In this document: piece by piece, positions 4,084-20,000 of the stretch
Position numbering within the stretch: position 1 is the first letter of the stretch
Layout of the letters: each line of letters starts with the position of its first letter
Virus record (IMG/VR): IMGVR_UViG_3300005600_000030
Location: 54,180-74,179 of that record
Origin: an uncultured virus (IMG/VR IMGVR_UViG_3300005600_000030)
Taxonomy: Duplodnaviria > Heunggongvirae > Uroviricota > Caudoviricetes
DNA length: 20,000 nucleotides
Reading direction: 5' to 3' (one strand)
Notes under the pieces: generated by a model
What the model was told of the DNA's origin: nothing
What the model saw: the letters and a program-made list of their open reading frames with translations, nothing else
The model's database searches: none
Made by a program: the position numbers and the translations under genes

Positions 4084-4091
4084 TATTTATA
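4084..4091 (-). promoter_or_regulatory. T4-type late (gp55-dependent) promoter for gp18
   Basis: Perfect TATAAATA on the minus strand in the gp17-gp18 intergenic gap. Confidence 0.85.
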
Positions 4092-6046: not shown

Positions 6047-6828
6047 TAAAATTCACTATCCAAGTATACAGTACTGAATCCATAGTCACTGTCAGCACCA
6101 ACCCCAACAGGTGTCGGTGTGGTTTGTAAACGTAGTTGGAAATCTTCCCTGTCACTATCACCCGATAAAATATATAGGTTATTATTAACTTCACGGATAA
6201 CACCACGAGTGGACATCGGGCCATAAAAGTTAATCTTCATGTTGAATGACAGAGTGTATATAATTGTTCTTCGGTCTCCGATAGAACCCTCATAACCATC
6301 ACTGAAAGAAACACCTGACAATATAATAGGTACATCTTCGGAGATTTCTGGGTGGTCTGTGTTGAATGGTTTGACCGATATCGTGTACTGAGGATTGAAG
6401 TAAGGTAGAATCTGTTCGACCATCTGCAATGCATCATCCTGAGACTTTGCGTAGATATTAACCTCAAACCCAATATCGTATGGTACAGAAGAATAGAATT
6501 GATTCTTTTTAGTCGCGTCACCACCTACCGTAGATGAGAATGAATTCATCTTGGGTAGTTGTCTCACTGGGTCATATGTCATAGAAGTAATCTCGAACGA
6601 CATACGAGGTAGTTTAATTGCAACCCTGCGTTCTGCTTCCTCACCATTAGCCATCTCACCTAATCTTTCGATGAAACTCTTCTTGGGGGCGTAGGACAAA
6701 GGTACCTTAACTTGAGAGATAGTCTCTCCCGAAGAGTTTTGACGAAGTACATAGATGTTATTAAACATGGAACCGAATACCGATACCGCAGTTCTTACCC
6801 TCTTATGATAAAACCAATTTCCTAACAT
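6046..6828 (-). CDS. gp15: Tail sheath stabiliser / tail completion protein
   Basis: 260 aa with FYH...FGSMFNNI, KVPLSYAP, LPRMSFEI, QMVEQILPYFNP and RRTIIYTL; TAATG coupling to both neighbours. Confidence 0.95.
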   Translation of the reverse strand: MLGNWFYHKRVRTAVSVFGSMFNNIYVLRQNSSGETISQVKVPLSYAPKKSFIERLGEMANGEEAERRVAIKLPRMSFEITSMTYDPVRQLPKMNSFSSTVGGDATKKNQFYSSVPYDIGFEVNIYAKSQDDALQMVEQILPYFNPQYTISVKPFNTDHPEISEDVPIILSGVSFSDGYEGSIGDRRTIIYTLSFNMKINFYGPMSTRGVIREVNNNLYILSGDSDREDFQLRLQTTPTPVGVGADSDYGFSTVYLDSEF

Positions 6829-8570
6829 TATGATATATCTCCGAATGGATTACTCTCGCTGAAATCAAGGAAGTCCCCTTCAAAGTCATCGAAGAAATCG
6901 TTCTGTGCAGCCAGTTGTATGTTCTGCAATTCCTGTACCAAAGAAGGTGCATAGGACGCATCCTCACTGACTACCGCATTGCTTGTATTAAACGTATGAT
7001 ATACACCATCGTCCGAACCAACGTGTACTAGGTACAACGTGTTGTCCGAGTCAGACCATTTCGCAACTTCACCTTTCATGGTGAATGTCCCTTGGTCTTG
7101 ACTTACGATAGTATTACGTTGATAATTACCACCGGCAGAAGGTGCATCAATAGTTACTATTGGTTCTTCATCATAGTATATACCAGATTCGGTAAGTGCT
7201 ATTGACTCTAGTATACCACCATCTGTGATTGTTGTGGTTGCAGTTGCACTTATTGCATTGAAGTGTAGTAGTTTCGCATCGTAAGTTACGTCATCTTCCC
7301 ACTCTATTGATTGTATGGTAAGAGTAGTATCATTACCTACAGTCGCATATCTAGGTTCGAGTATCTGTGCTTTACTACCGACTTGTACACGGAACTCATC
7401 AATGAATCCGTCCATTGCAGTCCAGTCTATACCATCAACAGTACGTGCAGCAGTTGCACCTACCGAGTAACCTTCATCACTCACCCAGTTGAAAGTGACA
7501 CCTGCGAGGGTCGCGTCCAGTTTTCTTACGAAGTCGAAGTAGATTACTAGGTTGTTAGTTCCTACACCCGCAATAAGAATATGGTGCCAAGTATCTTCTT
7601 CGAATAAGATTGAACTTCCGGTGAGATTTGTTACACCCCCACCTTGGTTATCTCCTCTACTATACACTAATTGACCCGTTGGGTCAACACCCCAGTAATA
7701 GGTATTTGTTAGGTCACCGTCTCCACCACCTGTTTTGAAAATAATATCTTGACCAGATGAAGGAAGGTTGTTAATATATACCCATGCTTCGATACTACCA
7801 TGCGCACCTGTCTGCGCATACGTACCCTCAGAACCTCGACCACGAGTCACGTTAAGTGACGCATTACCGAACTTAGAATTACTTCCTAAAGCTGCACCAA
7901 TAGTTAATGTGGGTGCAGTAACATAACCTCTACCTGTAGTCTGAACATCAAATCCAACTACCGCACCATCAACATCAATTCGTGATAATGCAGTTGCAGT
8001 AGATGCTGCGGGAGATTCCATAACCAGTTTGTACTGGTATGCAGATTCTTCTTCAACGTCATCGATACCTTCAATGTCGGTATCAAAGTCTTCGTCATTA
8101 TATTCGAATAATTCACATTGAAGTCTGAATGTAGGTAGTTGACTCAACTGATAGAACGGAGTCTCGGTCTCTACTTTATATATCTCAAAGATTGATTGTG
8201 ATAAAGGAAGATAGATTAAGTCGCCTTCACGAGGACGGAAGTTATATGCATCTAGTTTGTCACCGATGAGTTTCTTCCATCGTCTACGTGCGCATACAAA
8301 TGTTGCTTGGTCACGCAACTCCACACCAAACTTAGAGAAGAGGTCACCCTCTCCTCCAAACGCTTCTGCATTCTCGATATACATCTCGATTTTATATGCG
8401 TCAGAAAAATGCGAAGGAACGTCATCAAGGAATATTTTATCCTTGTTAACAATTTCTCGAGGTAAATAGTATACGTCCTGACCATAGAATTGTAAGGACT
8501 CTATTACTATGTCCTCATATAAATTCTGTTCAGCACGTACTGATTGTGAAATCCAAGGATTTGTTGCCAT
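6828..8570 (-). CDS. gp14: Neck / head-closure protein with an inserted LamG/ConA-like domain
   Basis: N-terminal gp14 motifs (GQDVYYLPR, IEMYIEN, SKFGVELRD, RPREGDLIYLP, PFYQL, CELFEY) and C-terminal DFSESNPFG; 580 aa because of the internal insertion. Confidence 0.92.
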   Translation of the reverse strand: MATNPWISQSVRAEQNLYEDIVIESLQFYGQDVYYLPREIVNKDKIFLDDVPSHFSDAYKIEMYIENAEAFGGEGDLFSKFGVELRDQATFVCARRRWKKLIGDKLDAYNFRPREGDLIYLPLSQSIFEIYKVETETPFYQLSQLPTFRLQCELFEYNDEDFDTDIEGIDDVEEESAYQYKLVMESPAASTATALSRIDVDGAVVGFDVQTTGRGYVTAPTLTIGAALGSNSKFGNASLNVTRGRGSEGTYAQTGAHGSIEAWVYINNLPSSGQDIIFKTGGGDGDLTNTYYWGVDPTGQLVYSRGDNQGGGVTNLTGSSILFEEDTWHHILIAGVGTNNLVIYFDFVRKLDATLAGVTFNWVSDEGYSVGATAARTVDGIDWTAMDGFIDEFRVQVGSKAQILEPRYATVGNDTTLTIQSIEWEDDVTYDAKLLHFNAISATATTTITDGGILESIALTESGIYYDEEPIVTIDAPSAGGNYQRNTIVSQDQGTFTMKGEVAKWSDSDNTLYLVHVGSDDGVYHTFNTSNAVVSEDASYAPSLVQELQNIQLAAQNDFFDDFEGDFLDFSESNPFGDIS

Positions 8571-9345: not shown

Positions 9346-12300
9346 TTAGTTAAGTAGTGTACCCGAAGAGTTATACACGTTAATTCTGTAATGTGAACCT
9401 TGTTGTCCATCTAGTGTGTCAGCATCTAATCCAGAACCCGCACCGTCCACGGTTTTGATTGCGGTCAATAGTTCGGTTGGAGTTGAGTACGTCTCTATAG
9501 TACTAATAACACCAGATGCAGAGTCATATGCAATACCCGAACCCGCAACCATTACCCCACGAATTGTGGATGTGTGGTTAGACAGACTTGACACAGTACC
9601 AGTAACATCACCAGTTAAGTTTGCAGTAATAGTACCCGCAGTAAAGTTACCAGAAATATCACGTGCAACAATTGTCGAACCAGTATTAGAAGAAGTCGCA
9701 GTAGTTGCAGAGTTCTGTACTTTACCTGAAGTCGAAATAGTTGCAAGTTTAGTGTCTGCGATATTCGCAGTTGCATTAATCATCGCATTGGTGATGACAT
9801 TGCTTGCAATACTTGTTGTTAAACTAACATTACCAGTACCATTGAATCCAATTGCGGCCGAAGTTATGTTTCCGGTCAACGAGAAGTTTCTAGAGTTTGC
9901 AAGTTGAACCGCAGAGGTCGCAGAAGTTGCATTACCTGACAGGTTACCATATGCAGTAGCAAACTGAACATCAGCAAGAGATGCAGAGTCAAAGTTAATA
10001 TCGAACTGAGAACTAGAGGAGTCAACGTTTGCGGCAGGATATGCGTCAAAGAATTTCCAACGTTCATCTGTTGCGTCACGCACAACACCCGCATACTTTA
10101 GGGGTTCGTTTTGTTGGTTGTAGTTACCAATAAGACCCAAGTCAAGATTAAGTTCTGTTGGGTGTGCACACCAAAGGTCTGCACTATCGTGACCAGACAA
10201 GTTAATAAACTGAATTGATAGACCATTACGTAAAGGTGCAGTTAGACCGTCAGTCTTCAGATTCCAAGTTGTTTGACCATTCGCAGAATCAAATCCTGTA
10301 CCATATCCATATAGTCCTGCAAGTGAACCATAAGACATCGCATCAGAGTCGGAAATACCCCACTCGATTGTGTCACCAACACCCGCAGAATCAACAGAGA
10401 CCATACGGACAAAGTAGAATACATCACTGTCACCCAGATACTTACCCTTGAAAGTCGCATCGTTTAGGCCACCACTGCTCTGATATGCAGTACCAACAGT
10501 ATCACCATCAAGTAACTGAAGTAAGTTACCACTAGTTGTAAGAGACTGCGAAAGAACTTCGGTTGTGACACCAAGAATGTTTAAGTTACCACCAACGGTC
10601 ACGTTTGCATCGAATCGTGCGTCTTGAGTTACACGAATAGTTTCCATCGTGTGGTCAATAACATCAACGTATACACAACCCAGTGCACTATCTTGAATCA
10701 GACAGATGCCCATATCGGTTGGATAGTAAGGATATTGTGGTGCAGTTGTAGTTAACCCGCCACCTACCGCAACGTGTACTTTTTCACCAACAGTCAAGTT
10801 CTGTGTATCAATATCAGCAACAAGACCACGAGTAGTGACGTAACCGATACTACCATTGGTGATATCATGTGTCGCAAGACCTACTGCGGAAGTTGCTTCT
10901 GTTGCATCGGCAGTAGCAATAGAAGGAACCGAACCCACTTCACCAGACAGATAAACAGGTGTACCATTTATGATAGTTGAACCAGAGTTGTTATAAACTC
11001 GAATCCATTCTTCTTGACCTACCTGTAGAGTAACGTCTTCGACATCATTCTTAACTACAAGTGCACCGTTCGCAGAATCGTAGTAAACCTGACCCTCTTC
11101 ATAGTATCCTGGCGATTTACCATCAAAGTGAATATGCGAACCGTAGATATCTGGCGCTACAAGATCGTGTGTAATAATCTTGTCTTGAACACGTAGATAC
11201 TCGAAGTGTTCTTTTTCTACGTTAACTAAGATACTACCTTGTGCACCGACAGTTAGTACTGTACCCAAGTGAGTAGGATAACCACTGTCAACAGATACTT
11301 CAGTTGTACTCCACTCACCCGCAGAGTCTTTTGATAGATATGCAGTTGCACCCGCAGTCATACCTGTAGTATTTACATCACGAACCAAACCAACTTTAGT
11401 TACATAACCATGCGCACCATCAGGAATGTCCATAGTCGCAAGACCGATAGGACTTGCAGTAGATGCGGCATCTGCCTTTGCAAGAGTTACTTGAGGGTGC
11501 GCACCATGCGCAACACCGGATATGTAAACTGCTTGACCGTTATTAATCTGTGCACCAGTCAAGTTATGAACATATATTAATGTTTCTTGACCTAAGTTGA
11601 TAGTTACATCTTCGACCAACTCATTGGTTGTCGGAATGAAAGACAGACCTTTCTGAGGGTCTGAATCATAATACAATAATCCACGCAGACTGTTAGGTGC
11701 GTCAGGAAGTTTGTCCAAGTGTAAACAAGAGATTTGTGCAGAGTCAACAGTTACCTTACCGAATACAACATCATCGGTTGTTCCGACAGACTGTGCAATT
11801 GCAACTTCACCATTGCTGATTGTTACTCCAGTTCCACCAGAGAAGTGTGCACGAGTCTCACTTGCACTTGGGCCAGTATAAACCAATACCCCTGTTGCAC
11901 TATCATATGCAAGACTTCCATCACCACTAGGATTCTGAACCGACAATACATTACGTGCACGTTGGGTAGTGAAGTAGAGGTTATCTCCCTCGGTTAATTG
12001 AGTAGTTGTTTTCTGACCAAAGTCAGAATCAAACCCACTATAAGGTTGTTCTTCATAGGAGATTATACCAGTAGTTGCATTATATGCGATACTACCTGTT
12101 GCACTGATTGCATGACGTGCAGTAGTGATAGTTCTATCGGAATCATAATAGAGGTTAGTCTGACCCTGTGTCAGGTCATCGGTGGTTTTATCCCCTAAGT
12201 CCGAATCGAAATAAGTTGTTTTGTAATAAAGATTAGACGAACCTTCAGTTAGGTCGTCTGTTGTTTTGGTTCCAAGTCTAGTATCGAACATACTCTCGCC

Positions 12301-12768
12301 ACGAGCAGTAGTCCAATATAAGTTAGTCCCCTCTGATAAATCAGAAGTAGAAAAAGAAGACAATCCAATACGTGCATTAAAAGAACCACCATCTGCGGTG
12401 GATATATTAAGAGTCGCACTTGCAGAATCAAAGGTGAATGCATTAACACCCGCAACAGTTGCACTGTCAATCGCAGTGATTTGACCTTGTGCATTAACTG
12501 TTAATACAGGAATTGAGGTTGATGAACCAACACTTCCGGCAGATACGCCAGTATTGGTGATAGAGATTTCCCCTGCGGTTTCGGTTATACCCGTACCGCC
12601 AGAAACCTCTCGAAGTGTTACTACTGAACTGGAAGATGCACTATCAATTGTTTTAAAAAAAAGACGACCATCATTTGTATTGATGGCCAGTTCGCCTAGT
12701 TCTATATTTGATGTCGTGGGTGCTTTACCCTTGACAGCACTTCGCTTCAGTCTAAAAGTTGTAGACAT
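9346..12768 (-). CDS. Long fibre-like virion protein (tail, collar or head fibre)
   Basis: 1140 aa, rich in G/S/T. Fibre-type N-terminus RLKRS...GELAINTNDGRLF, four TTDDLxEGxNLY-type repeats, a duplicated internal beta domain, and the C-terminal DGAGSGLDADTLDG motif seen in phage fibres. Confidence 0.75.
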   Translation of the reverse strand: MSTTFRLKRSAVKGKAPTTSNIELGELAINTNDGRLFFKTIDSASSSSVVTLREVSGGTGITETAGEISITNTGVSAGSVGSSTSIPVLTVNAQGQITAIDSATVAGVNAFTFDSASATLNISTADGGSFNARIGLSSFSTSDLSEGTNLYWTTARGESMFDTRLGTKTTDDLTEGSSNLYYKTTYFDSDLGDKTTDDLTQGQTNLYYDSDRTITTARHAISATGSIAYNATTGIISYEEQPYSGFDSDFGQKTTTQLTEGDNLYFTTQRARNVLSVQNPSGDGSLAYDSATGVLVYTGPSASETRAHFSGGTGVTISNGEVAIAQSVGTTDDVVFGKVTVDSAQISCLHLDKLPDAPNSLRGLLYYDSDPQKGLSFIPTTNELVEDVTINLGQETLIYVHNLTGAQINNGQAVYISGVAHGAHPQVTLAKADAASTASPIGLATMDIPDGAHGYVTKVGLVRDVNTTGMTAGATAYLSKDSAGEWSTTEVSVDSGYPTHLGTVLTVGAQGSILVNVEKEHFEYLRVQDKIITHDLVAPDIYGSHIHFDGKSPGYYEEGQVYYDSANGALVVKNDVEDVTLQVGQEEWIRVYNNSGSTIINGTPVYLSGEVGSVPSIATADATEATSAVGLATHDITNGSIGYVTTRGLVADIDTQNLTVGEKVHVAVGGGLTTTAPQYPYYPTDMGICLIQDSALGCVYVDVIDHTMETIRVTQDARFDANVTVGGNLNILGVTTEVLSQSLTTSGNLLQLLDGDTVGTAYQSSGGLNDATFKGKYLGDSDVFYFVRMVSVDSAGVGDTIEWGISDSDAMSYGSLAGLYGYGTGFDSANGQTTWNLKTDGLTAPLRNGLSIQFINLSGHDSADLWCAHPTELNLDLGLIGNYNQQNEPLKYAGVVRDATDERWKFFDAYPAANVDSSSSQFDINFDSASLADVQFATAYGNLSGNATSATSAVQLANSRNFSLTGNITSAAIGFNGTGNVSLTTSIASNVITNAMINATANIADTKLATISTSGKVQNSATTATSSNTGSTIVARDISGNFTAGTITANLTGDVTGTVSSLSNHTSTIRGVMVAGSGIAYDSASGVISTIETYSTPTELLTAIKTVDGAGSGLDADTLDGQQGSHYRINVYNSSGTLLN

Positions 12769-12795
12769 TTGTCAACCTCGTTCCAATATTGGATA

Positions 12796-12815
12796 ACCCC
12801 CTTAAAGAAGGGGGT
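12796..12815. other. Intergenic GC-rich hairpin; terminator or 5' stabiliser, orientation unclear
   Basis: ACCCCCTT-AAAG-AAGGGGGT, an 8-bp stem. There is no good U-tract on the coding strand; a T-rich run follows on the plus strand. Confidence 0.6.
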
Positions 12816-12828
12816 GATGTTTTATTAT

Positions 12829-14832
12829 TTAGTATGTTCCGCCATCAAGGGTCGAGATAGTCGCGAACCCAGATGTCACGGTGAATTGGTCTGAATCAAA
12901 AGACGCAACACCTTTGTTGGAATAACTTGCAATCTCGGCAGCGAATACAATAGTGTTATCACTGTCCTGTGAAGAACCGTATGTGATATCAAGTCCTTCA
13001 CCTGCGGCAAAGAAACTGTTACCAAGGTGGTCTTCGATATATTCACTAAGAACCACGCCATTACGGTAAATCTCACCACCAACATCTAAGTCTTTATTGG
13101 TGTTCCACTTGTCTCCTGCAACAGAGTATGTAATTGTCGCAGCCGCACCATTGACCGTAATACCTGCACCATTCGCAGCAGTCGCATCTGCGGCACTATC
13201 TGCAAGGACAAGATTAAGGTCATTAATCGACATAGTGGTCGAGTTAATGATTGTTTGAGTACCCTGTACAACAAGGTCACCCAGTACAAGAACCTGTCCA
13301 CCGTTTGAGTCTCCACTCTTAGGGTCAAGTACAAGTACATTAGTTGCAGTATTAGTAGATATCTTATTACCGTCAATACGGATGTTATCTACAGTCGCAC
13401 CAGTAAGTCCGGTAAGGTCAGTAACAGTCGCACCAAGTGCAACCGCATTATCGCCAATAGTTATATCATCATTGACGAGGTCAGCATTTGCAACAGACCC
13501 AGCCTTCAGACTTACATGACCATTCGAGATTGTGAAGTCAGTGTCTTCGAAAGACGCAATACCTTTGTTGTTACCGTCTGCATCTTCACCAGATACCGAG
13601 ATGTTAGTACCTGCATGGTTTACATTGATACCTTCTCCACCAAGGATAGATATCATGTGACCAGTGATAGGAACATTACCGTCATCGGTAGTGATTTGTT
13701 TAACTACCGCAGAATCAAGACTTACATCACCCGAGTTAAGTGTGAAGTCCGCAGACTGGAATTTGGCAACACCACGTTGGGTGTAAGTTGCATTCAATGC
13801 ATCGACAGTTATAGTCGAACCAGTTCCTTCTGTGACGATACCCTGTACTGAGTTACCACCGATAGTTAATGCATGGGTTACCGGAGTTACATCACCAGAA
13901 TCAGTGCTGATACCTTTTAGTACCGCATCATTCAGGGATACTTCACCCGAAGATACACCAAAGTCTGCACTAAGGAATTGTGCAACACCCTTCGAAGAAG
14001 TGGTCGCATCATCGATTGCATAATCAATCGTGTTAGTAGAACTGGTGTAAGTAAGAGTTAAACCATTACCTGTTGCGGTAAAGGTTACATCTGAATCTAG
14101 GAGACTGATTGGGTCACTGTTAATAGTCAGGTTGGTTGCAACACTAACTTCGGACGCAGCAGTCAATCGACCATCAGAGTCAACCGTGAATGATGGGATT
14201 GCGGTTTGTGAACCGTATGTTCCTGCGGTCACACCTGTGACATCTAAGTCAAAGGTGATTGTATTGGTACCACTGTCTGCAATGGTAGTAATCGCATTAC
14301 CACCGGCATAAGTGATAAACTCTATCGAAGGAATAAAGGTAAACGAACCATTATCCGCAGCTGCGGTTGCGAGGAATTCTGCGGCAAGTGCATCAACATA
14401 TGCCTTGTTCGCAGCATCAGAATCGTGAGTAGGAGTTGCGACACCATGAAGTCCCACATTACCAAAGTCAATTTCGTTACCGTTGGTGTCAAAGGTCAAT
14501 CCACTAACAGAGGTAATTGTGCCATCTGAAAGTGTGATGAAGTTGCTACTACCAACATTAATAGTATCAATTTTACTACTAGCGTCTACGATAAGTGCAC
14601 TGTTCGGGGTCAGTGTACCTTTCGCATGGTCTAACATACTGGTGAAGAATTTACCACCAATGACTTCGTGATTAACTGCATTACCTGCGATTTCAGTACC
14701 AGTACCAATATATAATCGGTCACCACCATTGGAACCATTATCGGTTAAGTATGAATATGCTAATTCACCTTGACCAAGTGTGGTCGGGTCTCCCGCAGTT
14801 CCCGATCTTTTTATTCTTAATAATGATGCCAT
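12829..14832 (-). CDS. Fibre-like virion structural protein
   Basis: 667 aa. N-terminus RIKRS...GELAYS...RLYIG resembles that of the 1140-aa protein; DAANKAYVD motif; four A-x4-[KR]G[VI]AxFxxx[DQ]F repeats; ends LDGGTY. Confidence 0.75.
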   Translation of the reverse strand: MASLLRIKRSGTAGDPTTLGQGELAYSYLTDNGSNGGDRLYIGTGTEIAGNAVNHEVIGGKFFTSMLDHAKGTLTPNSALIVDASSKIDTINVGSSNFITLSDGTITSVSGLTFDTNGNEIDFGNVGLHGVATPTHDSDAANKAYVDALAAEFLATAAADNGSFTFIPSIEFITYAGGNAITTIADSGTNTITFDLDVTGVTAGTYGSQTAIPSFTVDSDGRLTAASEVSVATNLTINSDPISLLDSDVTFTATGNGLTLTYTSSTNTIDYAIDDATTSSKGVAQFLSADFGVSSGEVSLNDAVLKGISTDSGDVTPVTHALTIGGNSVQGIVTEGTGSTITVDALNATYTQRGVAKFQSADFTLNSGDVSLDSAVVKQITTDDGNVPITGHMISILGGEGINVNHAGTNISVSGEDADGNNKGIASFEDTDFTISNGHVSLKAGSVANADLVNDDITIGDNAVALGATVTDLTGLTGATVDNIRIDGNKISTNTATNVLVLDPKSGDSNGGQVLVLGDLVVQGTQTIINSTTMSINDLNLVLADSAADATAANGAGITVNGAAATITYSVAGDKWNTNKDLDVGGEIYRNGVVLSEYIEDHLGNSFFAAGEGLDITYGSSQDSDNTIVFAAEIASYSNKGVASFDSDQFTVTSGFATISTLDGGTY

Positions 14833-15060: not shown

Positions 15061-15420
15061 TTACCTTGTTACCGAAGGTGTGACTTTAATCTTACCTTCC
15101 AGTATTCTTTCGATGATTGTATTTCCATCACTGTCATCAAATGACAGTTCTACGTCATAGACATATCGGTTTCTAGGGTTCAGTAAATCGGTTTCAGCAT
15201 TGGTGAGAGCGAGTACAAGAATACCGTCTTCGGGAGGATCTGTTATTGCAGTAGTGAAAGTTACGATATCGTTATCGTCAACTGAGTTGTAACTTCTTTT
15301 CATTTTCGCAGACGCAGAGTGTGCTGTCAAATCTTTTTTAGAACCATCAGTTTCCTGAAGGTGCAATTCGATTGCAACATCTGCGCCTTGGTCAATTGTA
15401 AAATCTTCGTAATCTGCCAT
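15061..15420 (-). CDS. Small Ig-like / BppU-N-like virion adaptor protein
   Basis: 119 aa with pattern TIDQGAD...DLT...RYVYDVEL...RILEGKIKVTPSVTR, which I recognise from beta-sandwich proteins that precede phage fibre genes; lies behind a late promoter. Confidence 0.7.
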   Translation of the reverse strand: MADYEDFTIDQGADVAIELHLQETDGSKKDLTAHSASAKMKRSYNSVDDNDIVTFTTAITDPPEDGILVLALTNAETDLLNPRNRYVYDVELSFDDSDGNTIIERILEGKIKVTPSVTR

Positions 15421-15484
15421 TTCCAGTTTCCATCAAACCAATGTAGTGTCTATGGTTTTATTTATATGATTTCGAAACTGGAAA
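15420..15484 (-). promoter_or_regulatory. 11-bp inverted repeat able to occlude the RBS and start codon of the 119-aa gene
   Basis: TTTCCAGTTTC (15420-15430) and GAAACTGGAAA (15474-15484) are perfect reverse complements and enclose the late promoter. Confidence 0.7.
15459..15466 (-). promoter_or_regulatory. T4-type late promoter
   Basis: Perfect TATAAATA on the minus strand, intergenic, about 40 nt upstream of the ATG at 15420. Confidence 0.85.
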
Positions 15485-15494
15485 ATACAGAAAA

Positions 15495-16190
15495 TTACTC
15501 TTCAGACATTATATCTTCGATTAAATCATCTCTGATAACCGAGGACAATTCCGAGGTATCGAAAATGAATGATACCGTCACTCTCCAACAGTCAGTTTTT
15601 GCTGAGTGGTAGAATAGTCGTTCGGGTTCTTCATAATGTCCAAAGTATGCGGCTTTACAGTTCCAACCTTGTTTATCCTTCATCTCCACGACTTCTTTGG
15701 TGGTAGGGTCAACATAATTAAATTGACCGTCTCCAGTCTCTGACCATGAGAATATTAGATTGTATGCGGGGGCGTTCGCATTATTGTGCCAAGAGATATA
15801 ACCGCCAGGTGGATAGAATGCGGTAAGTGCATTGTGTCTTACTCCCAACCATCCAAGAATCTCTTGTTGCATCCACGCAAGTTCCGCAGTCCTGTCTTTG
15901 CGGATAGATGGATGCACACCACGTTCATAAAACTCGTGGTCTTTTCTATGCACTCCAAGTTCGTACCCGTAGATAGAATCCGGAAACCCTTCGTGTCGAG
16001 TACCTTGGTCAAGAATTTCTTGTAGGTGAGTGTCACCTGCCCAGTAATGTCTATTACTTGCATCTTCTTGACATTGTAGGTGAAATGTCTCTTTGAAAGA
16101 ATCGACATCCTTCATCAAGAAGTCTCGATATCGATTCAATATTTTTAATAAGTCCCTATTCTTAACAGGGATGTCCTGCATATAACTCAT
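15495..16190 (-). CDS. 2OG-Fe(II) dioxygenase-like (DSBH) protein with an atypical HxN motif
   Basis: 231 aa with FYPPGGYISWHNN...G.F...FYHSA...RVTVSF, the usual spacing of first His, distal His and the 2OG-binding RxS/T-type strand. Confidence 0.7.
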   Translation of the reverse strand: MSYMQDIPVKNRDLLKILNRYRDFLMKDVDSFKETFHLQCQEDASNRHYWAGDTHLQEILDQGTRHEGFPDSIYGYELGVHRKDHEFYERGVHPSIRKDRTAELAWMQQEILGWLGVRHNALTAFYPPGGYISWHNNANAPAYNLIFSWSETGDGQFNYVDPTTKEVVEMKDKQGWNCKAAYFGHYEEPERLFYHSAKTDCWRVTVSFIFDTSELSSVIRDDLIEDIMSEE

Positions 16191-16921
16191 ATGATATATC
16201 CGTCTTTATCTAAACCACAAGAGTAGTGTCGAATAACAACAGGGCCAGTCGGTTTGGTGATTGCCCAGTTGAATGCGTTATAATAGTTCCAACGCAAATC
16301 GTCTTCAAGTATACCGTACTTGAGGTCTTTGTATTTATCTTCTCTTTCAGTCAACCACCAGAGACTAAACTGATCCCATGACTTGAGACTATCGATGTAT
16401 CCGTCAGGCCACCAATTACCATCCATTTGGTCTTTAGTGAGCATCTCCCAGTCAGACATAAACTCTCTTACGATAGGTTTAGTCATGTCGTATAGAGCGA
16501 CACCCCCACACAAGGTAAATTTAGTCTTACCTTCAGGTGTATCAAACTGACGTTCTGCATAGACATACTCGCGGTCATCTGTGAGTTCAGAGAATAGAAT
16601 ATCCTCTTCGCGTCTCTCCAGTTCATCGAAACATATCGCAATGTCTTCGTGTTCACATTCCATATCAACATCGAGGTACATAGTCAGGTCATAAGGAGAA
16701 CGAGCCATACCTTCGAGTTTAGCACGATAGTGACTACTGCACCATTCGACATTATCAAATAGTTCTCGGTGTTGTTCCTCGAACATCCATGGTTCACAAA
16801 ACAATGTAATCTTTGCGTCTTCATAATAATCTAGAATCGACTCTGCAAGGTTAATTGCATATCGATAGAAGTTTATCTTGTTAGATGCAACAAGTACATA
16901 ACCTCTACTCTTCTCCGACAT
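16187..16921 (-). CDS. GT-A fold (GT8-like) glycosyltransferase
   Basis: Motifs RAKL...SPYDLTMYLDVD (DxD), LCGGV, WDQFSL, RWNY and VIRHY. The ATG at 16921 is preferred because GAGG lies 9 nt upstream. ATGA overlap with the oxygenase gene. Confidence 0.8.
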   Translation of the reverse strand: MSEKSRGYVLVASNKINFYRYAINLAESILDYYEDAKITLFCEPWMFEEQHRELFDNVEWCSSHYRAKLEGMARSPYDLTMYLDVDMECEHEDIAICFDELERREEDILFSELTDDREYVYAERQFDTPEGKTKFTLCGGVALYDMTKPIVREFMSDWEMLTKDQMDGNWWPDGYIDSLKSWDQFSLWWLTEREDKYKDLKYGILEDDLRWNYYNAFNWAITKPTGPVVIRHYSCGLDKDGYII

Positions 16922-17369
16922 TCTCATTCGCCTCAAGTGCTTCTTGTAACAACATCATTGCATATAGGTTAACTTCAACTTTAGATTTTGCGCGTCTAAG
17001 TTTTGCCTTTAACTTCCGGTTCTTGGAATTTTTAATCTCTTCTGTCTCAAAGACTTCTAGTTTGTAGTTAAAAAGTTCTTCGAGTTTACGTGCACGTGCA
17101 TGTTCGGTGTCACGTTGTTTACGTTCTTCGATTTCTGCAGCTTTCCGAACTTTACGGTCTTCGGTATTTCGGTCAATAGATTCTTCACCTAGTGCACCCA
17201 CAACTTCAGCGAACATTTCATTTTCACTACCGTCTTTATTAAGACGACTCAATAACATCACTTGTTTGGTTTGACGACCAATATCATCTTCCATCTCAAG
17301 GATACAATTGACTTTGGATTTCTCAGGATTTTCCCAAAATGCATTATCCATCCATCGTTTAAAACTCAT
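16905..17369 (-). CDS. Hypothetical protein, possibly a fibre-assembly chaperone
   Basis: 154 aa with an AGGAG RBS. N-terminus NAFWENPEKSKVNC loosely recalls tail-fibre assembly proteins; the C-terminal half is charged and helical. Confidence 0.6.
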   Translation of the reverse strand: MSFKRWMDNAFWENPEKSKVNCILEMEDDIGRQTKQVMLLSRLNKDGSENEMFAEVVGALGEESIDRNTEDRKVRKAAEIEERKQRDTEHARARKLEELFNYKLEVFETEEIKNSKNRKLKAKLRRAKSKVEVNLYAMMLLQEALEANENVGEE

Positions 17370-17399
17370 TCATCATTCTCCTATGATATATTAAATTTT

Positions 17400-17428
17400 A
17401 TAATACTATATATCACCCTTGTTGTCAA
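17400..17428 (-). promoter_or_regulatory. Sigma70-type promoter
   Basis: Minus strand TTGACA (17428-17423), 17-nt spacer, TATTAT (17405-17400): perfect -35, 5/6 -10, optimal spacing. Confidence 0.7.
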
Positions 17429-17436
17429 GGGTTTTT
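17415..17436. terminator. Hairpin overlapping the -35 box, terminator-like in the plus direction
   Basis: ACCCTTG-TTGT-CAAGGGT followed by TTTT on the plus strand, directly after the repeat-gene stop. Confidence 0.45.
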
Positions 17437-19999
17437 ATGCAGTTCTTACATAAAGTGTATAGGTTTCAATAACCTCAGTTCCCGAGTCTAGTGTGGTACC
17501 AACATAGTTCCCTACAAAGTCACGAGAATAATTGCCGATAAACGACCTAGAATAATTACCTGCAAAGTTGCGAGAATAATTTCCTGAGAAGTCTCCGGTG
17601 AAATCAGTTACGCGATTACGTGTATAGTCCGCAGAATACGCAGAAGTTCTAGTTCTACTAAATGTTGATACACGAGTTCTAGTAGAAGTACGAGTAGACG
17701 TTCGTGTATACTCACCAATGAAGTCTCGGCTGTAGTTACCAGTGAAGTCCCCAACATAGTTGGATACACGAACCCTTGTATATTCTCCTGCAAAGTCACG
17801 TGAGTAGTTCCCAACAAAGTTACCAGTAAAGTCTTGCAGAGAGTCACGCGTATATTCACCAAGGAATCCACGAGTATAGTTGCCAGTAAAATCACCTACG
17901 AAAGTTCTGGTATAGTTACCCGCAAAGTCTCTTGCGAAGTTACCAGTGTACTCTCCAATAAAGTCGGTTTGTCGGTCTCTTGAATATTCACCTGCAAAGT
18001 CTCGGGTGTAATCGCCAACATAATTACCGGCAAAGTCTCTGGCGTAGTTACCTGCAAAGTTTCTACTGTAATTACCTACGAAATTACCTGCGAAATCTAC
18101 TGTACTGTTGCGAGTGTATTCACCTGCAAAGTCTCGGGTATAATCACCCACATAATTTCCACCAAAGTCTCTGGTATAGTTTCCTGCAAAGTTGCGAGAA
18201 TAATTACCAACATAGTTTGCAATATAATCGGTTATACGAGTTCTTGCATAGTTACCAGTGAAGTCACGAGTATAGTCACCCACAAAGTCACGAGTAGAAG
18301 TTCTGGTTGATACTCTAGTGTATTCACCTGCAAAGTCACGTGAGTAATTACCTACAAAGTTACCTGCAAAAACTGCGGTACTATTACGAGTATAGTTACC
18401 AGTAAATGTTCTTGAGTAGTTACCCACATAGTTTGCAATATAATCGGTTATACGAGTTCTAGCGTATGCAGACACACGATTCCTTGAGTAAGTAGAAATA
18501 CGGTCACGGGTGTACGCAGAGAAACGAGTACGTGTTGATGTACGTGCGTATTCTCCAATGAAATCCCCGACATAATTTCCTGCGAAATCTCGAGTGTAAT
18601 CTCCGGTATAGTTCCCTACAAAGGTACGTGCATAGTTTCCAATAAAGTTACCCGCATAGTTTGTCACTCGGTCACGTGTAAAGTTACCAGTAAAGGTCTG
18701 TAATCTGTCACGAGTGTACGCAGAAAATCTTGTTCTACTTGATACTCTAGTATATGCAGAAGAACGGCTGCGAGTGTAGTCCGCAGCGTAAGCAGATACT
18801 CTAGTCCTTGTAGAGTCAGTAATACGAGTACGAGCATATGCAGAATAACGAGTACGTGTTGATATACGTGCGTATGCCGAGTTACGAGTTCTTGAGTAAT
18901 TACCAGCGAACGCACGAGAATAATCACCTATGAAGTTTCCTGCATAGTATCCGGTACGTGTATAATCACCGACAAATTCTCCTGCATAATAACCTAATCT
19001 AGTATAGTTACCAGTAAAGTCACCTGCATAGTATCCGGTACGGGTATAATACACTGTTGCCGTAGAAACACGAGTAGAGTTGCGCGTATAGTCACCTACG
19101 TAATACAGTGTACGAGTATAGTTACCAACATAATACAATGTGCGAGTGTAGTCGCCTACGTAATATAATGTACGAGTATAGTTGCCTGTGTAATATAACG
19201 TAGACGCACGTGCACGAGTATAAGTTCCGGTCGCAGTACTAGTACGAGTAGAAACCCTAGTATAATCTCCGGTCGCAGTACTAGTACGAGTGGAGGCCGG
19301 CAAGACACGTGAATAGTTACCGACATAGTAAATCGTTTGGCCTTCGACTGTACCACCTGCGCGTGAACGAGTATATTCTGCGGTACCATCAGATGCACCA
19401 ACATAGTTACCTAAGTAGTATAATGTCGGGGTTCGAACTCTCGTGTAATCAAGTGTACGAGTATAGTTACCTATGTAACTTGTTGTTCCAGAACGAGTAC
19501 GAGTATATGCGGATGTTTTTGTGTAATATTCAATCGCATATGGATCAGACGGTGGACTTCTTGCGAATAACAAAACACGAGTATAGTTTCCGACATACGT
19601 CCCACCAGAAATACTGTATCTGACATAGTATCCGGTACGTGTGTAGTTCCCTGTATAGTACGCAATTGCAGTGCTAACTCGAGTGTAGTCGGCAGTAGGC
19701 GTAAAGTTACCAACATAGTACAAGGTACGAGTGTAATTACCAGTAAAGTCACCTGCATAGTACAATGTTCTGGTGTAGTTTCCGGTATATGTTACACCTT
19801 CGGCACGTGCACGAGTATAATCTCCGGTCGCAGTACGAGTACGAGTATAGGTACCAGTTGCGGTGCGGGTTCGCGTATAGTCACCTACTGCCGTGCGGGT
19901 GCGGGTATAGTTACCCGTAAAGTCACCACTGTATGAAACTACACGACTATATGACAATGTAAGAGTCGAAGTCCTTGTACTGATTCTAGTGTAGTCAAA
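17435..19999 (-). CDS. Giant low-complexity Y/T/R/G repeat protein, 5'-truncated (more than 850 aa)
   Basis: The frame stays open beyond the ORF-track TTG at 19957 to the window edge (FDYTRISTRTSTLTLSYSR...). Built from GNYTR, FAGN and YSRD units; non-repetitive C-terminal cap TTLDSGTEVIETYTLYVRTA. Confidence 0.9.
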   Translation of the reverse strand, partial: FDYTRISTRTSTLTLSYSRVVSYSGDFTGNYTRTRTAVGDYTRTRTATGTYTRTRTATGDYTRARAEGVTYTGNYTRTLYYAGDFTGNYTRTLYYVGNFTPTADYTRVSTAIAYYTGNYTRTGYYVRYSISGGTYVGNYTRVLLFARSPPSDPYAIEYYTKTSAYTRTRSGTTSYIGNYTRTLDYTRVRTPTLYYLGNYVGASDGTAEYTRSRAGGTVEGQTIYYVGNYSRVLPASTRTSTATGDYTRVSTRTSTATGTYTRARASTLYYTGNYTRTLYYVGDYTRTLYYVGNYTRTLYYVGDYTRNSTRVSTATVYYTRTGYYAGDFTGNYTRLGYYAGEFVGDYTRTGYYAGNFIGDYSRAFAGNYSRTRNSAYARISTRTRYSAYARTRITDSTRTRVSAYAADYTRSRSSAYTRVSSRTRFSAYTRDRLQTFTGNFTRDRVTNYAGNFIGNYARTFVGNYTGDYTRDFAGNYVGDFIGEYARTSTRTRFSAYTRDRISTYSRNRVSAYARTRITDYIANYVGNYSRTFTGNYTRNSTAVFAGNFVGNYSRDFAGEYTRVSTRTSTRDFVGDYTRDFTGNYARTRITDYIANYVGNYSRNFAGNYTRDFGGNYVGDYTRDFAGEYTRNSTVDFAGNFVGNYSRNFAGNYARDFAGNYVGDYTRDFAGEYSRDRQTDFIGEYTGNFARDFAGNYTRTFVGDFTGNYTRGFLGEYTRDSLQDFTGNFVGNYSRDFAGEYTRVRVSNYVGDFTGNYSRDFIGEYTRTSTRTSTRTRVSTFSRTRTSAYSADYTRNRVTDFTGDFSGNYSRNFAGNYSRSFIGNYSRDFVGNYVGTTLDSGTEVIETYTLYVRTA

Positions 20000-20000
20000 T
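17500..20000 (-). repeat. Degenerate in-frame tandem repeats (12/24-nt and 30-nt periods)
   Basis: Recurrent units such as tagttacc(t/c)gcaaagtc and cgagtatagttacc, varying mainly at synonymous positions. Confidence 0.9.

What the first reader, a model, noticed from the sequence alone, without database searches (positions are those of the whole stretch)
15495..20000. Candidate virion-protein modification system: giant repeat protein, chaperone-like ORF, GT8-like glycosyltransferase and 2OG-Fe(II) oxygenase
Seen: a repeat protein of more than 850 aa, dense in modifiable side chains (Tyr, Thr, Ser, Arg, Asn), is followed directly by three overlapping genes. These include a DxD glycosyltransferase and a DSBH oxygenase, all inside the structural module. 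Known: hydroxylase plus glycosyltransferase pairs modify repeat proteins (collagen lysyl hydroxylase/GT, Mimivirus L230); GT8 glycogenin glucosylates Tyr; GT-A NleB/SseK glycosylate Arg. Inference: the cassette hydroxylates and/or glycosylates the repeat protein or other virion proteins, making a glyco-fibre or coat. Structural context favours this over DNA hypermodification.
Basis: partly seen in the sequence, partly recalled or inferred. Interest (0 to 1): 0.85.

Follow-up and report, generated by a model that had tools for sequence, protein, structure and literature searches.

The report
Phage repeat fibre with enzyme trio
An uncultured marine T4-like phage keeps a small helical protein, a glycogenin-like sugar transferase and a prolyl-hydroxylase-like protein with an altered metal site directly behind a giant tyrosine-rich repeat fibre gene, which suggests, without proving, that the phage chemically tailors that fibre.

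Summary
The window is the structural module of an uncultured T4-like myovirus. At 17435-20000 (- strand) lies the last 854 aa of a 1615-aa protein built of about 330 four-residue units [Y/F]-x-[G/R]-x. It is followed by three coupled genes. o154 is a small helical protein with no support for 'chaperone'. o249 has a GT8-like GT-A fold (Z 15.4 to glycogenin) and an invariant DxD. o231 has a 2OG-oxygenase (DSBH) fold (Z 10.5, nearest prolyl hydroxylases).

The oxygenase-like protein carries His-x-Asn...His...Arg, not His-x-Asp/Glu; the Asn is kept in 126 of 126 relatives. Its family has three copies per genome, and only one sits beside the transferase. The trio has a sigma70-like promoter of the class that precedes the replication genes, not the late box that flanks it.

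The link to the fibre gene is strong. Fibre, o154, o249 and o231 stay together in relatives down to about 30% identity, while the fibre's repeat flavour changes and keeps only Tyr-x-Gly.

Fibre tailoring is the best reading (about 0.45). Host-envelope or host-protein modification are live rivals. No chemistry is shown. The scan has already noted this cassette in other genomes, with similar conclusions.

The parts
17435..20000 (-). C-terminal 854 aa (residues 762-1615) of the 1615-aa tetrapeptide-repeat fibre protein. It is cut by the window and contig end.
   Evidence: ORF. The full length comes from the near-identical contig L003:2655-7502 and is identical over the window part. Period 4 is shown.
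19541..19558 (-). SPPSDP, the only proline cluster in the repeat region. It is the centre of the mirror-like arrangement of the two repeat arms and a candidate hairpin turn.
   Evidence: Smith-Waterman score of the repeat region against its own reverse is 1066. The null of 40 unit shuffles gives 899 +/- 40, maximum 979. The centre is at about residue 911; prolines lie at 910, 911 and 914.
17435..17467 (-). Conserved C-terminal tail ...ETYTLYVRTA plus the stop codon. Distant relatives end in ...LWRRI[G/A].
   Evidence: 11 of 15 distant loci have this kind of tail on the ORF directly upstream of o154.
17400..17428 (-). Sigma70-like promoter candidate TTGACA-17-TATTAT in the 65-nt gap before o154. 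It overlaps a 7-bp hairpin just after the fibre stop codon.
   Evidence: Best site of the scan, 11 of 12 matches; sequence. A TATATA box is present in 46 of 49 distinct relatives, and the late box in 0 of 49.
16905..17369 (-). o154, a small protein conserved with the two enzymes. It has the N-terminal motif W-x-D-N-A-F-W-E and a basic C-terminal half with the conserved motif LFNYK...KNRKLK..LRRAKS, read as helical from sequence only.
   Evidence: Alignment A5. No Pfam or PHROG family. Its HMM is found in 16 of 19 distant loci.
16187..16921 (-). o249, a GT8-like GT-A glycosyltransferase (244 aa from the ATG at 16921). DxD = D84-V-D86 at 16664-16672. Invariant H232 at 16226-16228.
   Evidence: Model pLDDT 83. 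Foldseek top hit glycogenin-1, E 2.8e-8. VIA Z 15.4 glycogenin, 14.6 Skp1 Gat1, 13.9 GlyE. Invariant residues in A1.
15495..16190 (-). o231, a DSBH protein of 2OG-oxygenase fold with His135-x-Asn137 (15780-15788), His195 (15606-15608) and Arg203 (15582-15584).
   Evidence: Model pLDDT 93.8. All 50 best VIA hits are 2OG oxygenases; top Z 10.5. Motif invariance.
15459..15466 (-). T4-type late promoter box TATAAATA upstream of o119. It marks the start of the next, late, transcription unit.
   Evidence: The box is present in 46 of 47 distinct relatives upstream of o119.
15061..15420 (-). o119, a small conserved protein that follows the trio. It belongs to the neighbourhood and is not shown to belong to the system.
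   Evidence: phrog_1084 at E 7.7e-19 and phrog_3304 'L-shaped tail fiber protein assembly' at E 9.1e-12.

Best explanation
This is a fibre-tailoring cassette. The late-expressed fibre protein has a globular N-domain of about 255 aa, two mirror-like arms of [Y/F]-x-[G/R]-x tetrapeptides that meet at a Pro-rich turn, and a conserved C-terminal tail. It is matured in the cytoplasm by a separately transcribed trio.

The GT8-like retaining glycosyltransferase o249 is inferred to transfer a sugar from a nucleotide sugar, held by a DxD-bound metal, to side chains of the repeats. Tyr is the most likely target, since it is the only residue class kept in all repeat flavours; Thr or Ser are the alternative. 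The prolyl-hydroxylase-like DSBH protein o231 either oxidises the same substrate with an unusual His-x-Asn...His metal site or serves as its binding subunit. o154 is an accessory subunit.

Shown here: the folds, the motifs, the linkage and the promoter classes. Inferred: the substrate, the chemistry and any complex between the proteins.
For: 1. Folds. o249 is GT8-like: Foldseek E 2.8e-8 to glycogenin-1, with LgtC, GlyE and UGGT also listed; VIA Z 15.4/rmsd 3.5/197 aligned to glycogenin, 14.6 to the Skp1 alpha-galactosyltransferase 6mw8, 13.9 to GlyE, 13.1 to the PBCV-1 capsid glycosyltransferase 2p6w and 12.0 to the collagen glucosyltransferase 6wfv. Several of these act on proteins. o231: all 50 best VIA hits are 2OG oxygenases, led by protein prolyl hydroxylases (6f0w Z 10.5, 6t8m 10.3, PHD2 10.0, P4H with EF-Tu 10.0, viral collagen P4H 9.5).

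2. Catalytic-type residues are conserved. D84xD86 and H232 are invariant in 30 of 30 o249 sequences. In o231 relatives, Y126, W134, H135 and N137 are kept in 126 of 126, and H195 and R203 in 125 of 126. They sit at the end of strand II, on strand VII and on strand VIII of the model.

3. Linkage near the window. Of 80 IMG/VR loci found with o249, o231 follows in 80, o154 precedes in 79 and a repeat-protein hit lies upstream in 77. Of 30 loci found with the fibre N-domain, the trio follows in 21; the other 9 are cut by contig ends.

4. Linkage at distance. In 19 loci of an o231 subfamily (23-34% identical), o249 and o231 are adjacent in 17, and o154 is present in 16. The ORF directly upstream is Tyr/Gly/Thr-rich, Lys-poor and ends in LW[RIML]R[ITV]x in 11 of 15. 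In the other 4 loci one extra ORF intervenes and a Y-x-G-rich ORF lies further upstream. The repeat flavour changes (YTGP, YLGP, YVGP, YTGS), and o119 moves 2.5-6.8 kb away where it is found, so the linkage outlasts the local synteny.

5. Phyletic pattern. Of 1615 phage records with a gp13 homologue, only C48C1 has the GT, the o231 homologue and the fibre N-domain.

6. The fibre gene carries the late box TATAAATA in 5 of 5 nearest relatives.

7. The genome also encodes a UDP-glucose/GDP-mannose-dehydrogenase-like protein and an NAD-dependent sugar epimerase. These are possible donor-sugar suppliers.
Against: - No modification is shown.
- The trio has no late box in 0 of 49 distinct relatives. 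It has instead a TATATA/TTGAC-type element of the kind that precedes DNA polymerase, clamp and clamp loader in this genome. Its timing may therefore differ from that of its supposed substrate, although read-through from the fibre's late promoter is not excluded.
- The o231 family has 3 copies per genome. Two lie in other contexts, one between a gp3-like gene and uvsY and one near gp41/uvsX. 2 of 19 distant loci hold the gene without a transferase.
- The facial-triad carboxylate is replaced by Asn, so oxygenase activity is uncertain.
- Structural modules of T4-like phages are syntenic by descent, so adjacency is weaker evidence than it looks.
- One locus (L065) has 1.5 kb upstream of o154 without a repeat hit.
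- GT8 enzymes of bacteria are mostly LPS enzymes, and a paper on pelagimyophages reads fibre-region GT8 genes as host O-chain modifiers (PMC7029224, passages seen).
Confidence: 0.45

Rival explanations
1. Host-envelope remodelling. The GT8-like enzyme, perhaps with o231 and o154, is made early and alters LPS, O-antigen or capsule sugars of the infected cell. This would block superinfection or release progeny. Its place beside the fibre gene would then reflect the hypervariable host-recognition region, not a shared substrate.
For: - The promoter class is shared with replication genes, not with late genes.
- LgtC, an LOS galactosyltransferase, is among the best fold hits.
- The genome carries further sugar genes: a dehydrogenase-like protein, an epimerase and two Sulfotransfer_2-like proteins.
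- This is the published reading of GT8 genes in the fibre region of pelagimyophages (PMC7029224, passages). A cyanomyovirus paper reads such genes the same way (PMC12801897, passages).
Against: - It does not explain why the trio stays locked behind the Tyr-repeat fibre gene over deep divergence while other neighbours move.
- It does not explain the partner with a protein-hydroxylase-like fold.
- Neither published reading was tested by experiment.
Confidence: 0.2
2. Host-protein modification for takeover. An early-made GT-A transferase and a PHD-like enzyme would modify a host protein such as a translation factor, in the manner of glycosylating GT-A effectors and of the Pseudomonas P4H that hydroxylates EF-Tu.
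For: - The promoter is of early/middle type.
- Fold neighbours include the P4H-EF-Tu complex 4iw3 (Z 10.0) and protein-glycosylating GT-A enzymes (LtpM 11.1, SetA 9.8).
Against: - These neighbours do not stand above the others; Z values within 1 count as ties.
- It gives no reason for the conserved position behind the fibre gene.
- No host is known.
Confidence: 0.1
3. The trio is a fibre-assembly aid without oxygenase chemistry. o231 would be a pseudo-enzyme or binding module (the His-x-Asn site binds no iron), and o154 with o231 would hold or fold the long repeat arms. o249 may or may not still glycosylate.
For: - Asn replaces the carboxylate in 126 of 126 relatives.
- No Pfam 2OG family reaches threshold in 0 of 30 and 0 of 105 members.
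- o154 is conserved with the pair.
Against: The near-total conservation of H135, H195, R203, W134, Y126 and D172 over 126 representatives of separate 50%-identity clusters is what one expects of a working metal and 2OG-type pocket, not of a decayed one. Asn can ligate non-haem iron, as in lipoxygenase; this point is recalled and comes from no call.
Confidence: 0.15
4. DNA hypermodification. A TET/JBP-like oxygenase plus a glycosyltransferase would decorate bases of the phage DNA.
For: NgTET1 is among the DSBH hits (Z 8.4). AlkB-like domains appear among the viral hits.
Against: - Prolyl hydroxylases score higher than TET.
- The cassette sits between fibre genes, not with the nucleotide-metabolism genes.
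- The transferase is glycogenin-like GT-A. That the phage T4 DNA glucosyltransferases have a different fold (GT-B) is recalled and comes from no call.
Confidence: 0.04

Closest known systems
Glycogenin and other GT8 / GT8-like retaining GT-A transferases that act on proteins (Skp1 alpha-galactosyltransferase Gat1, 6mw8; GlyE of the pneumococcal serine-rich repeat adhesin PsrP, 5gvv)
   Same: They are the best structural neighbours of o249 (Z 15.4, 14.6 and 13.9). o249 has a DxD after a hydrophobic strand and a conserved C-terminal His. GlyE decorates a giant repeat protein encoded nearby. That glycogenin glucosylates Tyr and that GlyE acts on PsrP is recalled and comes from no call.
   Different: PF01501 matches 0 of 30 members even at E 10. 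Sequence identity to the neighbours is 12-17%. The acceptor is unknown. The protein is a phage protein of 244 aa without extra domains.
Skp1 hydroxyproline-glycosylation pathway of Dictyostelium/Toxoplasma (PhyA prolyl 4-hydroxylase plus glycosyltransferases)
   Same: Both enzyme folds have a pathway member among their top hits. The Dictyostelium hypoxia-sensing PHD, 6t8m, scores Z 10.3 for o231; its identity with PhyA is recalled. The Skp1 galactosyltransferase 6mw8 scores Z 14.6 for o249. In both cases a cytoplasmic hydroxylase and a GT8-like transferase would act on one protein.
   Different: The repeats contain almost no Pro (0.5%). o231 has His-x-Asn instead of His-x-Asp. The similarity is of fold only, and Z ties with other families are within 1.
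Collagen lysyl hydroxylase/glycosyltransferase LH3 and Mimivirus L230
   Same: A hydroxylase plus a GT-A transferase acting on a long repeat protein. LH3 GT domains are fold hits (6wfv Z 12.0, 8zgc Z 11.3).
   Different: There is no Gly-X-Y repeat, and Lys is 0.1% and Pro 0.5%. The two enzymes are separate genes. The only longer o249 relative found is fused to an unknown 300-aa domain, not to an oxygenase.
Virion glycosylation of mycobacteriophages (Freeman et al. 2023, Cell Host Microbe) and of chlorovirus PBCV-1 (A64R)
   Same: Virus-encoded transferases placed next to structural genes. The PBCV-1 capsid glycosyltransferase 2p6w is a fold hit (Z 13.1).
   Different: Of Freeman et al. I saw only the reference as cited in PMC12801897, plus abstracts of genome announcements; its content is recalled. 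Those systems decorate capsid or tail-tube subunits, have no oxygenase-like partner and are not in T4-like phages.
Glycosyltransferases of the host-recognition region of pelagimyophages and cyanomyophages (Zaragoza-Solas et al. 2020, PMC7029224)
   Same: Marine T4-like phages with GT8-class genes among the tail-fibre genes (passages seen).
   Different: That paper reads them as host O-chain modifiers. In the passages I saw it does not describe the fibre-o154-GT-DSBH block or the Tyr-repeat fibre family. The window's lineage is only 38% identical to the pelagiphage Mosig in gp13.

Membership tests
GT8 glycosyltransferases (CAZy GT8, Pfam PF01501) | GT-A fold whose nearest solved structures are GT8 enzymes | tested here: met
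   Foldseek E 2.8e-8 to glycogenin-1, with LgtC at rank 3. VIA Z 15.4 (rmsd 3.5, 197 aligned) to glycogenin, 13.2 to LgtC and 12.8 to the GT8 protein 3tzt. Model pLDDT is 83.
GT8 glycosyltransferases (CAZy GT8, Pfam PF01501) | DxD metal and nucleotide-sugar motif | tested here: met
   D84-V-D86 is invariant in 30 of 30 sequences. The only stretch that hhalign pairs with a true PF01501 protein of a related phage is this motif, but at probability 0.6%, which is not significant.
GT8 glycosyltransferases (CAZy GT8, Pfam PF01501) | C-terminal His (third metal ligand) followed by Gly and Lys | tested here: inconclusive
   R231-H232-x-S234...L237-x-K239-D240 are invariant. The GT8 motif itself is recalled from memory, the spacing differs by one residue, and the model is weak there (pLDDT 56-67).
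GT8 glycosyltransferases (CAZy GT8, Pfam PF01501) | Match to the family's sequence model | tested here: not met
   PF01501 matches 0 of 30 members at E up to 10. 23 of 30 give a sub-threshold match to PF00535 (GT2) over the DxD region, best E 0.0015. The profile search against PDB sequences finds nothing.
2OG-Fe(II) oxygenase superfamily | Double-stranded beta-helix fold of the superfamily | tested here: met
   All 50 best of 48,161 chains are 2OG oxygenases. The top is Z 10.5 (rmsd 4.3, 157 aligned). Foldseek PDB top hits are P4H, PHD2, AlkB and FIH. The BFVD hits agree. Model pLDDT is 93.8.
2OG-Fe(II) oxygenase superfamily | His-x-Asp/Glu...His facial triad | tested here: not met
   The sequence reads His135-Asn-Asn137...His195. 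Asn137 is kept in 126 of 126 relatives and His195 in 125 of 126. The positions at the end of strand II and on strand VII are taken from the model's secondary structure. No residue-level superposition was possible.
2OG-Fe(II) oxygenase superfamily | Basic residue on strand VIII that binds the C5 carboxylate of 2OG | tested here: met
   Arg203-x-Thr205 opens strand VIII, 8 residues after His195. Arg is kept in 125 of 126 relatives. By eye the stretch YHSAKTDCWRVTVSF resembles WHAASPVVKGTRLVVTAW of a true PF13640 protein of a related phage. hhalign does not detect this.
2OG-Fe(II) oxygenase superfamily | Match to a curated sequence model | tested here: not met
   Pfam gives 0 of 30. Of 105 diverse members, none reaches a cut-off; 3 give sub-threshold hits to PF13532 or PF03171. 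PDB sequence profiles find nothing.
Collagen-type hydroxylase/glycosyltransferase systems (LH3, Mimivirus L230) | Substrate repeats with hydroxylatable Lys or Pro | tested here: not met
   Lys 0.1% and Pro 0.5% in the 1330-aa repeat part.
T4-type late transcription unit (is the trio co-regulated with the virion genes?) | Late promoter box TATAAATA upstream | tested here: not met
   The box is present in 0 of 49 distinct regions upstream of o154, against 46 of 47 upstream of o119 and 5 of 5 nearest relatives upstream of the fibre gene. Read-through from the fibre's promoter is not excluded.
Phage virion-glycosylation systems | A glycan on a virion protein that depends on the phage transferase | not testable with these tools
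   This needs mass spectrometry of virions or of co-expressed proteins.

The most novel reading that the evidence does not exclude
The fibre would be an extremely long two-armed hairpin of Tyr-x-Gly/Arg-x tetrapeptides, about 650 residues per arm. Its tyrosines would be O-glycosylated by a glycogenin-like enzyme. That would be the first Tyr-glycosylated virion protein and the first glyco-fibre of a T4-like phage.

The His-x-Asn DSBH family would be a new class of metal enzyme that oxidises side chains of the same repeats, for example Tyr or Arg. This recalls the DOPA- and hydroxyarginine-bearing mussel adhesive proteins (recalled, from no call). The result would be a sticky, sugar-coated host-search fibre.
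Probability: 0.12. Interest if true: 0.85.

Novelty: new variant of a known kind. Interest (0 to 1): 0.6.

Why it matters
Virus-encoded glycosylation of virion proteins is known from giant viruses and from some mycobacteriophages. In the papers I searched it is not described for the abundant marine T4-like phages (passages of PMC7029224 and PMC12801897). In those papers glycosyltransferases are read as host-surface or DNA modifiers.

If the trio tailors the fibre, three things follow:
- It changes how host recognition, and possibly grazing or immune-like recognition, of these phages is understood.
- It gives a function to a large virus-only protein family: 681 clusters at 50% identity, with no Pfam model reaching its cut-off in the 105 members scanned.
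- It offers a natural His-x-Asn variant of the 2OG-oxygenase metal site for enzymology.

The question is directly testable by co-expression and mass spectrometry.

Tried and rejected
- Sequence-level family searches led nowhere for all four genes: Pfam and PHROGs, profile searches against PDB sequences, and hhalign against a true PF13640 and a true PF01501 protein of related phages (probabilities 0.3% and 0.6%).
- ESM Atlas. For o231 it found only its own unnamed viral clusters, plus leads below 0.9. For the fibre N-domain it gave no usable hit.
- Megablast of 8 kb against the phage collection found no match.
- A literature search for 'C48C1' found nothing relevant.
- A search for a natural His-x-Asn 2OG oxygenase (terms 2-oxoglutarate, facial triad, HXN) brought no such case in the 12 listed abstracts. 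It did bring the two-His site of AspH (PMC10915816, abstract only).
- Fusion search. Among longer proteins, only one o249 relative was found (551 aa). It is fused to an unknown N-domain, not to an oxygenase. The tool warns that finding none is weak evidence.
- Search of prokaryote genomes with a distant o231 sub-alignment: 12 pattern matches, none confirmed. This rests on a single 8-residue pattern, so it is weak evidence that the family is virus-only.
- Complex prediction on o154 + o249 + o231 with o231 as partner returned 'no answer'. It is not used for or against binding.
- The full alignment A3 was too diverse for the search for related loci, so the smaller A4 was used.
- A strict terminator test behind the fibre gene found a perfect hairpin plus T-run in only 9 of 50 relatives, against 0 of 144 control windows. 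In the window itself the hairpin has no T-run on the coding strand. A full stop of transcription is therefore not shown.
- The mirror test was negative for the second repeat protein P0122 (z -0.2).
- Considered and rejected: the collagen-like Lys/Pro hydroxylation target (composition) and the 'chaperone' label for o154 (no evidence).

Full report
WHAT IS THERE

The window is the last 20 kb of a 74-kb IMG/VR virus contig. All its genes lie on the - strand. Pfam and PHROGs identify portal, tail tube, sheath, TerL, TerS, gp15, gp14 and gp13, so this is the structural module of a T4-like myovirus.

Read 5' to 3' on the - strand, the finding's region holds:
- a repeat ORF, 17435->20000, 854 aa, open at the contig end;
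- o154, 16905-17369;
- o249, 16187-16936; relatives start at the ATG at 16921;
- o231, 15495-16190;
- o119, 15061-15420, which matches phrog_1084.

o154 and o249 overlap by 17 nt (32 nt with the TTG start). o249 and o231 overlap by 4 nt (ATGA).

A near-identical contig (L003) gives the whole repeat protein, 1615 aa. It is identical over the window's 854 residues. L003 also shows a second, paralogous repeat gene just upstream.

THE REPEAT PROTEIN

After a globular N-domain of about 255 aa come about 1330 residues with a four-residue period.
- The autocorrelation of Y/F at lag 4 is 0.49.
- Of 246 gaps between successive aromatics, 144 are exactly 4 residues and 40 are exactly 8.
- Counted at the 247 aromatics, the unit reads [Y 167/F 80]-[T/A/S/V]-[R 111/G 107]-[N/D/T].
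- Lys is 0.1% and Pro 0.5%.

No Pfam or PHROG family describes the protein.

Earlier notes of this scan speak of 'hairpin fibres', so I tested mirror symmetry. The Smith-Waterman score of the repeat region against its own reverse is 1066. Shuffles of the repeat units give 899 +/- 40, with a maximum of 979 in 40 shuffles (z 4.2). The centre falls at about residue 911, which is the only proline cluster of the region: SPPSDP, residues 909-914, window 19541-19558. The paralogue P0122 gives no such signal (z -0.2). A two-armed hairpin is therefore a reasonable but only partly tested picture.

The protein ends in ...ETYTLYVRTA.

THE THREE GENES

o249. With a 30-sequence alignment the model has pLDDT 83. 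Foldseek puts glycogenin-1 first (E 2.8e-8), with LgtC, UGGT, WbbM and GlyE following.

An independent all-against-representatives alignment gives these Z scores:

| Chain | Z |
|---|---|
| glycogenin (rmsd 3.5, 197 aligned) | 15.4 |
| Skp1 alpha-galactosyltransferase 6mw8 | 14.6 |
| GlyE | 13.9 |
| LgtC | 13.2 |
| PBCV-1 capsid glycosyltransferase | 13.1 |
| collagen glucosyltransferase | 12.0 |

D84-V-D86 and H232 are invariant in 30 of 30 sequences. At sequence level, PF01501 matches none of the 30. 23 of 30 give a sub-threshold GT2 match over the DxD region. o249 is thus GT8-like in fold and motif, but not a member by the family's sequence model.

o231. The model has pLDDT 93.8. All 50 best hits of 48,161 chains are 2OG oxygenases, led by protein prolyl hydroxylases. 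The top scores are Trichoplax PHD 10.5, Dictyostelium PHD 10.3, PHD2 10.0, Pseudomonas P4H 10.0 and chlorovirus collagen P4H 9.5. NgTET1 scores 8.4. Foldseek against PDB and against BFVD agrees.

The model's strands place His135 at the end of strand II, His195 on strand VII and Arg203 at the start of strand VIII. That is the canonical layout, except that the residue two after the first His is Asn137, not Asp or Glu.

The profile search finds a large family: 681 representatives of 50%-identity clusters at E <= 0.001. The call listed the best 150. I dropped the 25 shorter than 190 aa and aligned the remaining 125 with the window's protein. In these 126 sequences, Tyr126, Trp134, His135 and Asn137 are kept in 126 of 126, and His195 and Arg203 in 125 of 126.

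No Pfam model reaches its cut-off in 105 members scanned. A pattern scan of prokaryote genomes confirmed no relative, which is weak evidence.

Each of five genomes searched holds the family. Four of them hold three copies. In the window's genome, the other two copies lie between a gp3-like gene and uvsY, and near gp41/uvsX.

o154. No family is known for it. It has a conserved N-terminal W-x-D-N-A-F-W-E motif and a basic C-terminal half that I read as helical from its sequence. Nothing supports 'chaperone'.

LINKAGE

- Of 80 IMG/VR loci found with o249 (48-100% identity), o231 follows in 80. o154 precedes in 79; the miss is cut by a contig end. A repeat-protein hit lies upstream in 77. Two of the three misses have under 100 nt of upstream flank. 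The third, L065, has 1.5 kb without a hit.
- Of 30 loci found with the fibre N-domain, the trio follows in 21. The other 9 end within 4.4 kb, before the fibre gene is finished.
- Fibre length varies widely. It is under 600 aa in some loci and about 3350 aa in phage C48C1, a 10,044-nt CDS.
- In a distant o231 subfamily (23-34% identical to the window's), 17 of 19 loci keep o249 next to o231, and 16 keep o154 as well.
- In that subfamily the ORF directly upstream is Tyr/Gly/Thr-rich, Lys-poor and ends in LW[RIML]R[ITV]x in 11 of 15 loci. In the other 4 one extra ORF intervenes, with a Y-x-G-rich ORF further upstream.
- The repeat flavour differs between these loci (YTGP, YLGP, YVGP, YTGS). What the flavours share is Tyr (or Phe), Gly, and Thr/Ser.
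- Where o119 is found in these loci (8 of 19), it lies 2.5-6.8 kb from o231, except in L132, where it follows directly. So the block has outlasted local rearrangement.
- The 2 loci without a transferase hold the paralogue of the replication-gene neighbourhood.
- Among 50,697 phage records, only Phage C48C1 (record taxonomy Kyanoviridae, host not given) has o249, o231 and the fibre N-domain, and in the same order. 1615 records have a gp13 homologue. After C48C1 (55%), the nearest is Caulobacter phage Cr30 (41%), followed by cyanophages and pelagiphages. The host of the window's phage is unknown.

REGULATION

The 65-nt gap before o154 holds a 7-bp hairpin and the best sigma70-like site of the region, TTGACA-17-TATTAT, with 11 of 12 matches.

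| Region scanned (distinct sequences from relatives) | TATAAATA (T4 late box) | TATATA |
|---|---|---|
| Upstream of o154 (49) | 0 | 46 |
| Upstream of o119 (47) | 46 | 4 |

For TATATA upstream of o154, shuffles give a mean of 6 and a maximum of 12. TTGAC-N15-19-TATAww is present in 14 of the 49 regions. The fibre gene has the late box in 5 of 5 nearest relatives.

In the window's genome, the TTGAC/TATATA arrangement also precedes DNA polymerase B, the sliding clamp, the clamp loader, a gp47-like nuclease and a DruA-like gene.

The trio is therefore a unit with an early/middle-type promoter set between late genes. Read-through from the fibre promoter remains possible. A strict hairpin-plus-T-run is found in only 9 of 50 relatives, and not on the coding strand in the window.

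HOW IT MOST LIKELY WORKS

Shown: the folds, the conserved catalytic-type residues, the linkage and the promoter classes.

Inferred: the trio is made before or alongside the late fibre protein and acts on it in the cytoplasm. The transferase adds sugar to repeat side chains, most likely Tyr, since it is the only residue class common to all flavours; Thr or Ser are the alternative. The DSBH protein either oxidises the same substrate with an unusual metal site or recognises it. o154 is an accessory subunit. I put this at about 0.45.

The main rival, at 0.2, is early remodelling of host envelope glycans. This is the published but untested reading of fibre-region GT8 genes in pelagimyophages (PMC7029224, passages). 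The promoter class fits it. The tight, long-lived linkage to the fibre gene and the protein-hydroxylase-like partner do not.

The other rivals are host-protein modification (0.1), an assembly role without oxygenase chemistry (0.15) and DNA hypermodification (0.04).

COMPARISON AND NOVELTY

The closest known things are:
- protein-directed GT8 enzymes (glycogenin, Gat1, GlyE);
- the Skp1 hydroxyproline-glycosylation pathway, members of which are top fold hits for both enzymes;
- LH3/L230;
- virion glycosylation in mycobacteriophages and chloroviruses.

The cassette differs from all of them in its substrate type (a Tyr-x-Gly/Arg-x tetrapeptide fibre), in the His-x-Asn site, in the small third partner and in its occurrence in marine T4-like phages.

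My literature searches and the passages read found no description of this block. Freeman et al. 2023 I saw only as a cited reference.

Earlier notes of this same scan describe the same cassette in other genomes with similar conclusions. One of them also reports a sigma70 promoter. Others call it one late operon, which my counts for this lineage do not support.

I class the finding as a new variant of a known kind, with interest 0.6. No chemistry is shown, and the decisive experiments are simple.

Noticed in passing
L003:1-2610 (upstream of the window's contig end, in the near-identical contig): A second, paralogous repeat protein (869+ aa, open at its 5' end) with the same kind of N-domain, the same tetrapeptide repeats and the same tail (...ETYTLYVRTA). 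Its repeats are interrupted mid-way by a non-repeat segment of about 90 aa. Relatives carry 2-3 such N-domains in tandem.
   Followed up: partly
G000:C1:49460-50089 and 21127-21795 (L147:13460-14089, L146:3127-3795): Two further paralogues of o231 in the same genome. One lies between a gp19/gp3-like gene and uvsY, the other among small ORFs near gp41 and uvsX. Four of the five genomes searched have three copies.
   Followed up: partly
G000:C1:26010-27894 (L146:8010-9894): A UDP-glucose/GDP-mannose-dehydrogenase-like gene overlapping an NAD-dependent sugar epimerase/dehydratase gene. These are possible suppliers of a donor sugar.
   Followed up: no
G000:C1:5169-5861 and 38306-38944: Two Sulfotransfer_2-like proteins (E 9.5e-10 and 3.5e-4; the second is below the cut-off), plus an ATP-grasp protein at 6503-8200. 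Their substrates are unknown. This is notable in a phage with a Tyr-rich fibre.
   Followed up: no
G000:C1:33565-34701 (L146:15565-16701): A 378-aa phage protein matches Pfam DruA (Druantia defence protein), E 5.3e-9, 36 bits against a cut-off of 27. It is preceded by the early-type promoter arrangement.
   Followed up: no
window 6828-8570 (-): The gp14 neck protein is 580 aa long and carries a Laminin_G_3 (concanavalin-like lectin) domain at residues 257-395 behind the T4 neck-protein domain.
   Followed up: no
window 4084-4091 and 15459-15466 (-): The only two exact TATAAATA boxes of the window both lie in intergenic gaps, upstream of the sheath gene and of o119. Two matches alone are not above chance (52 of 200 shuffles reach 2). 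However, the o119 box is conserved in 46 of 47 relatives.
   Followed up: yes
P0273 (551 aa, from metagenome assemblies): An o249-like transferase (48% identity) fused behind an unknown domain of about 300 aa with no Pfam match. It is a single cluster member seen on 3 contigs.
   Followed up: partly
window 9346-14832 (-): Two large fibre-like ORFs (1140 aa and 667 aa) lie between o119 and gp13. The 667-aa one is rich in Gly/Thr/Ser/Asp and matches phrog_15769. The 1140-aa one matches phrog_697 'structural protein' only weakly. Both vary strongly among relatives.
   Followed up: no
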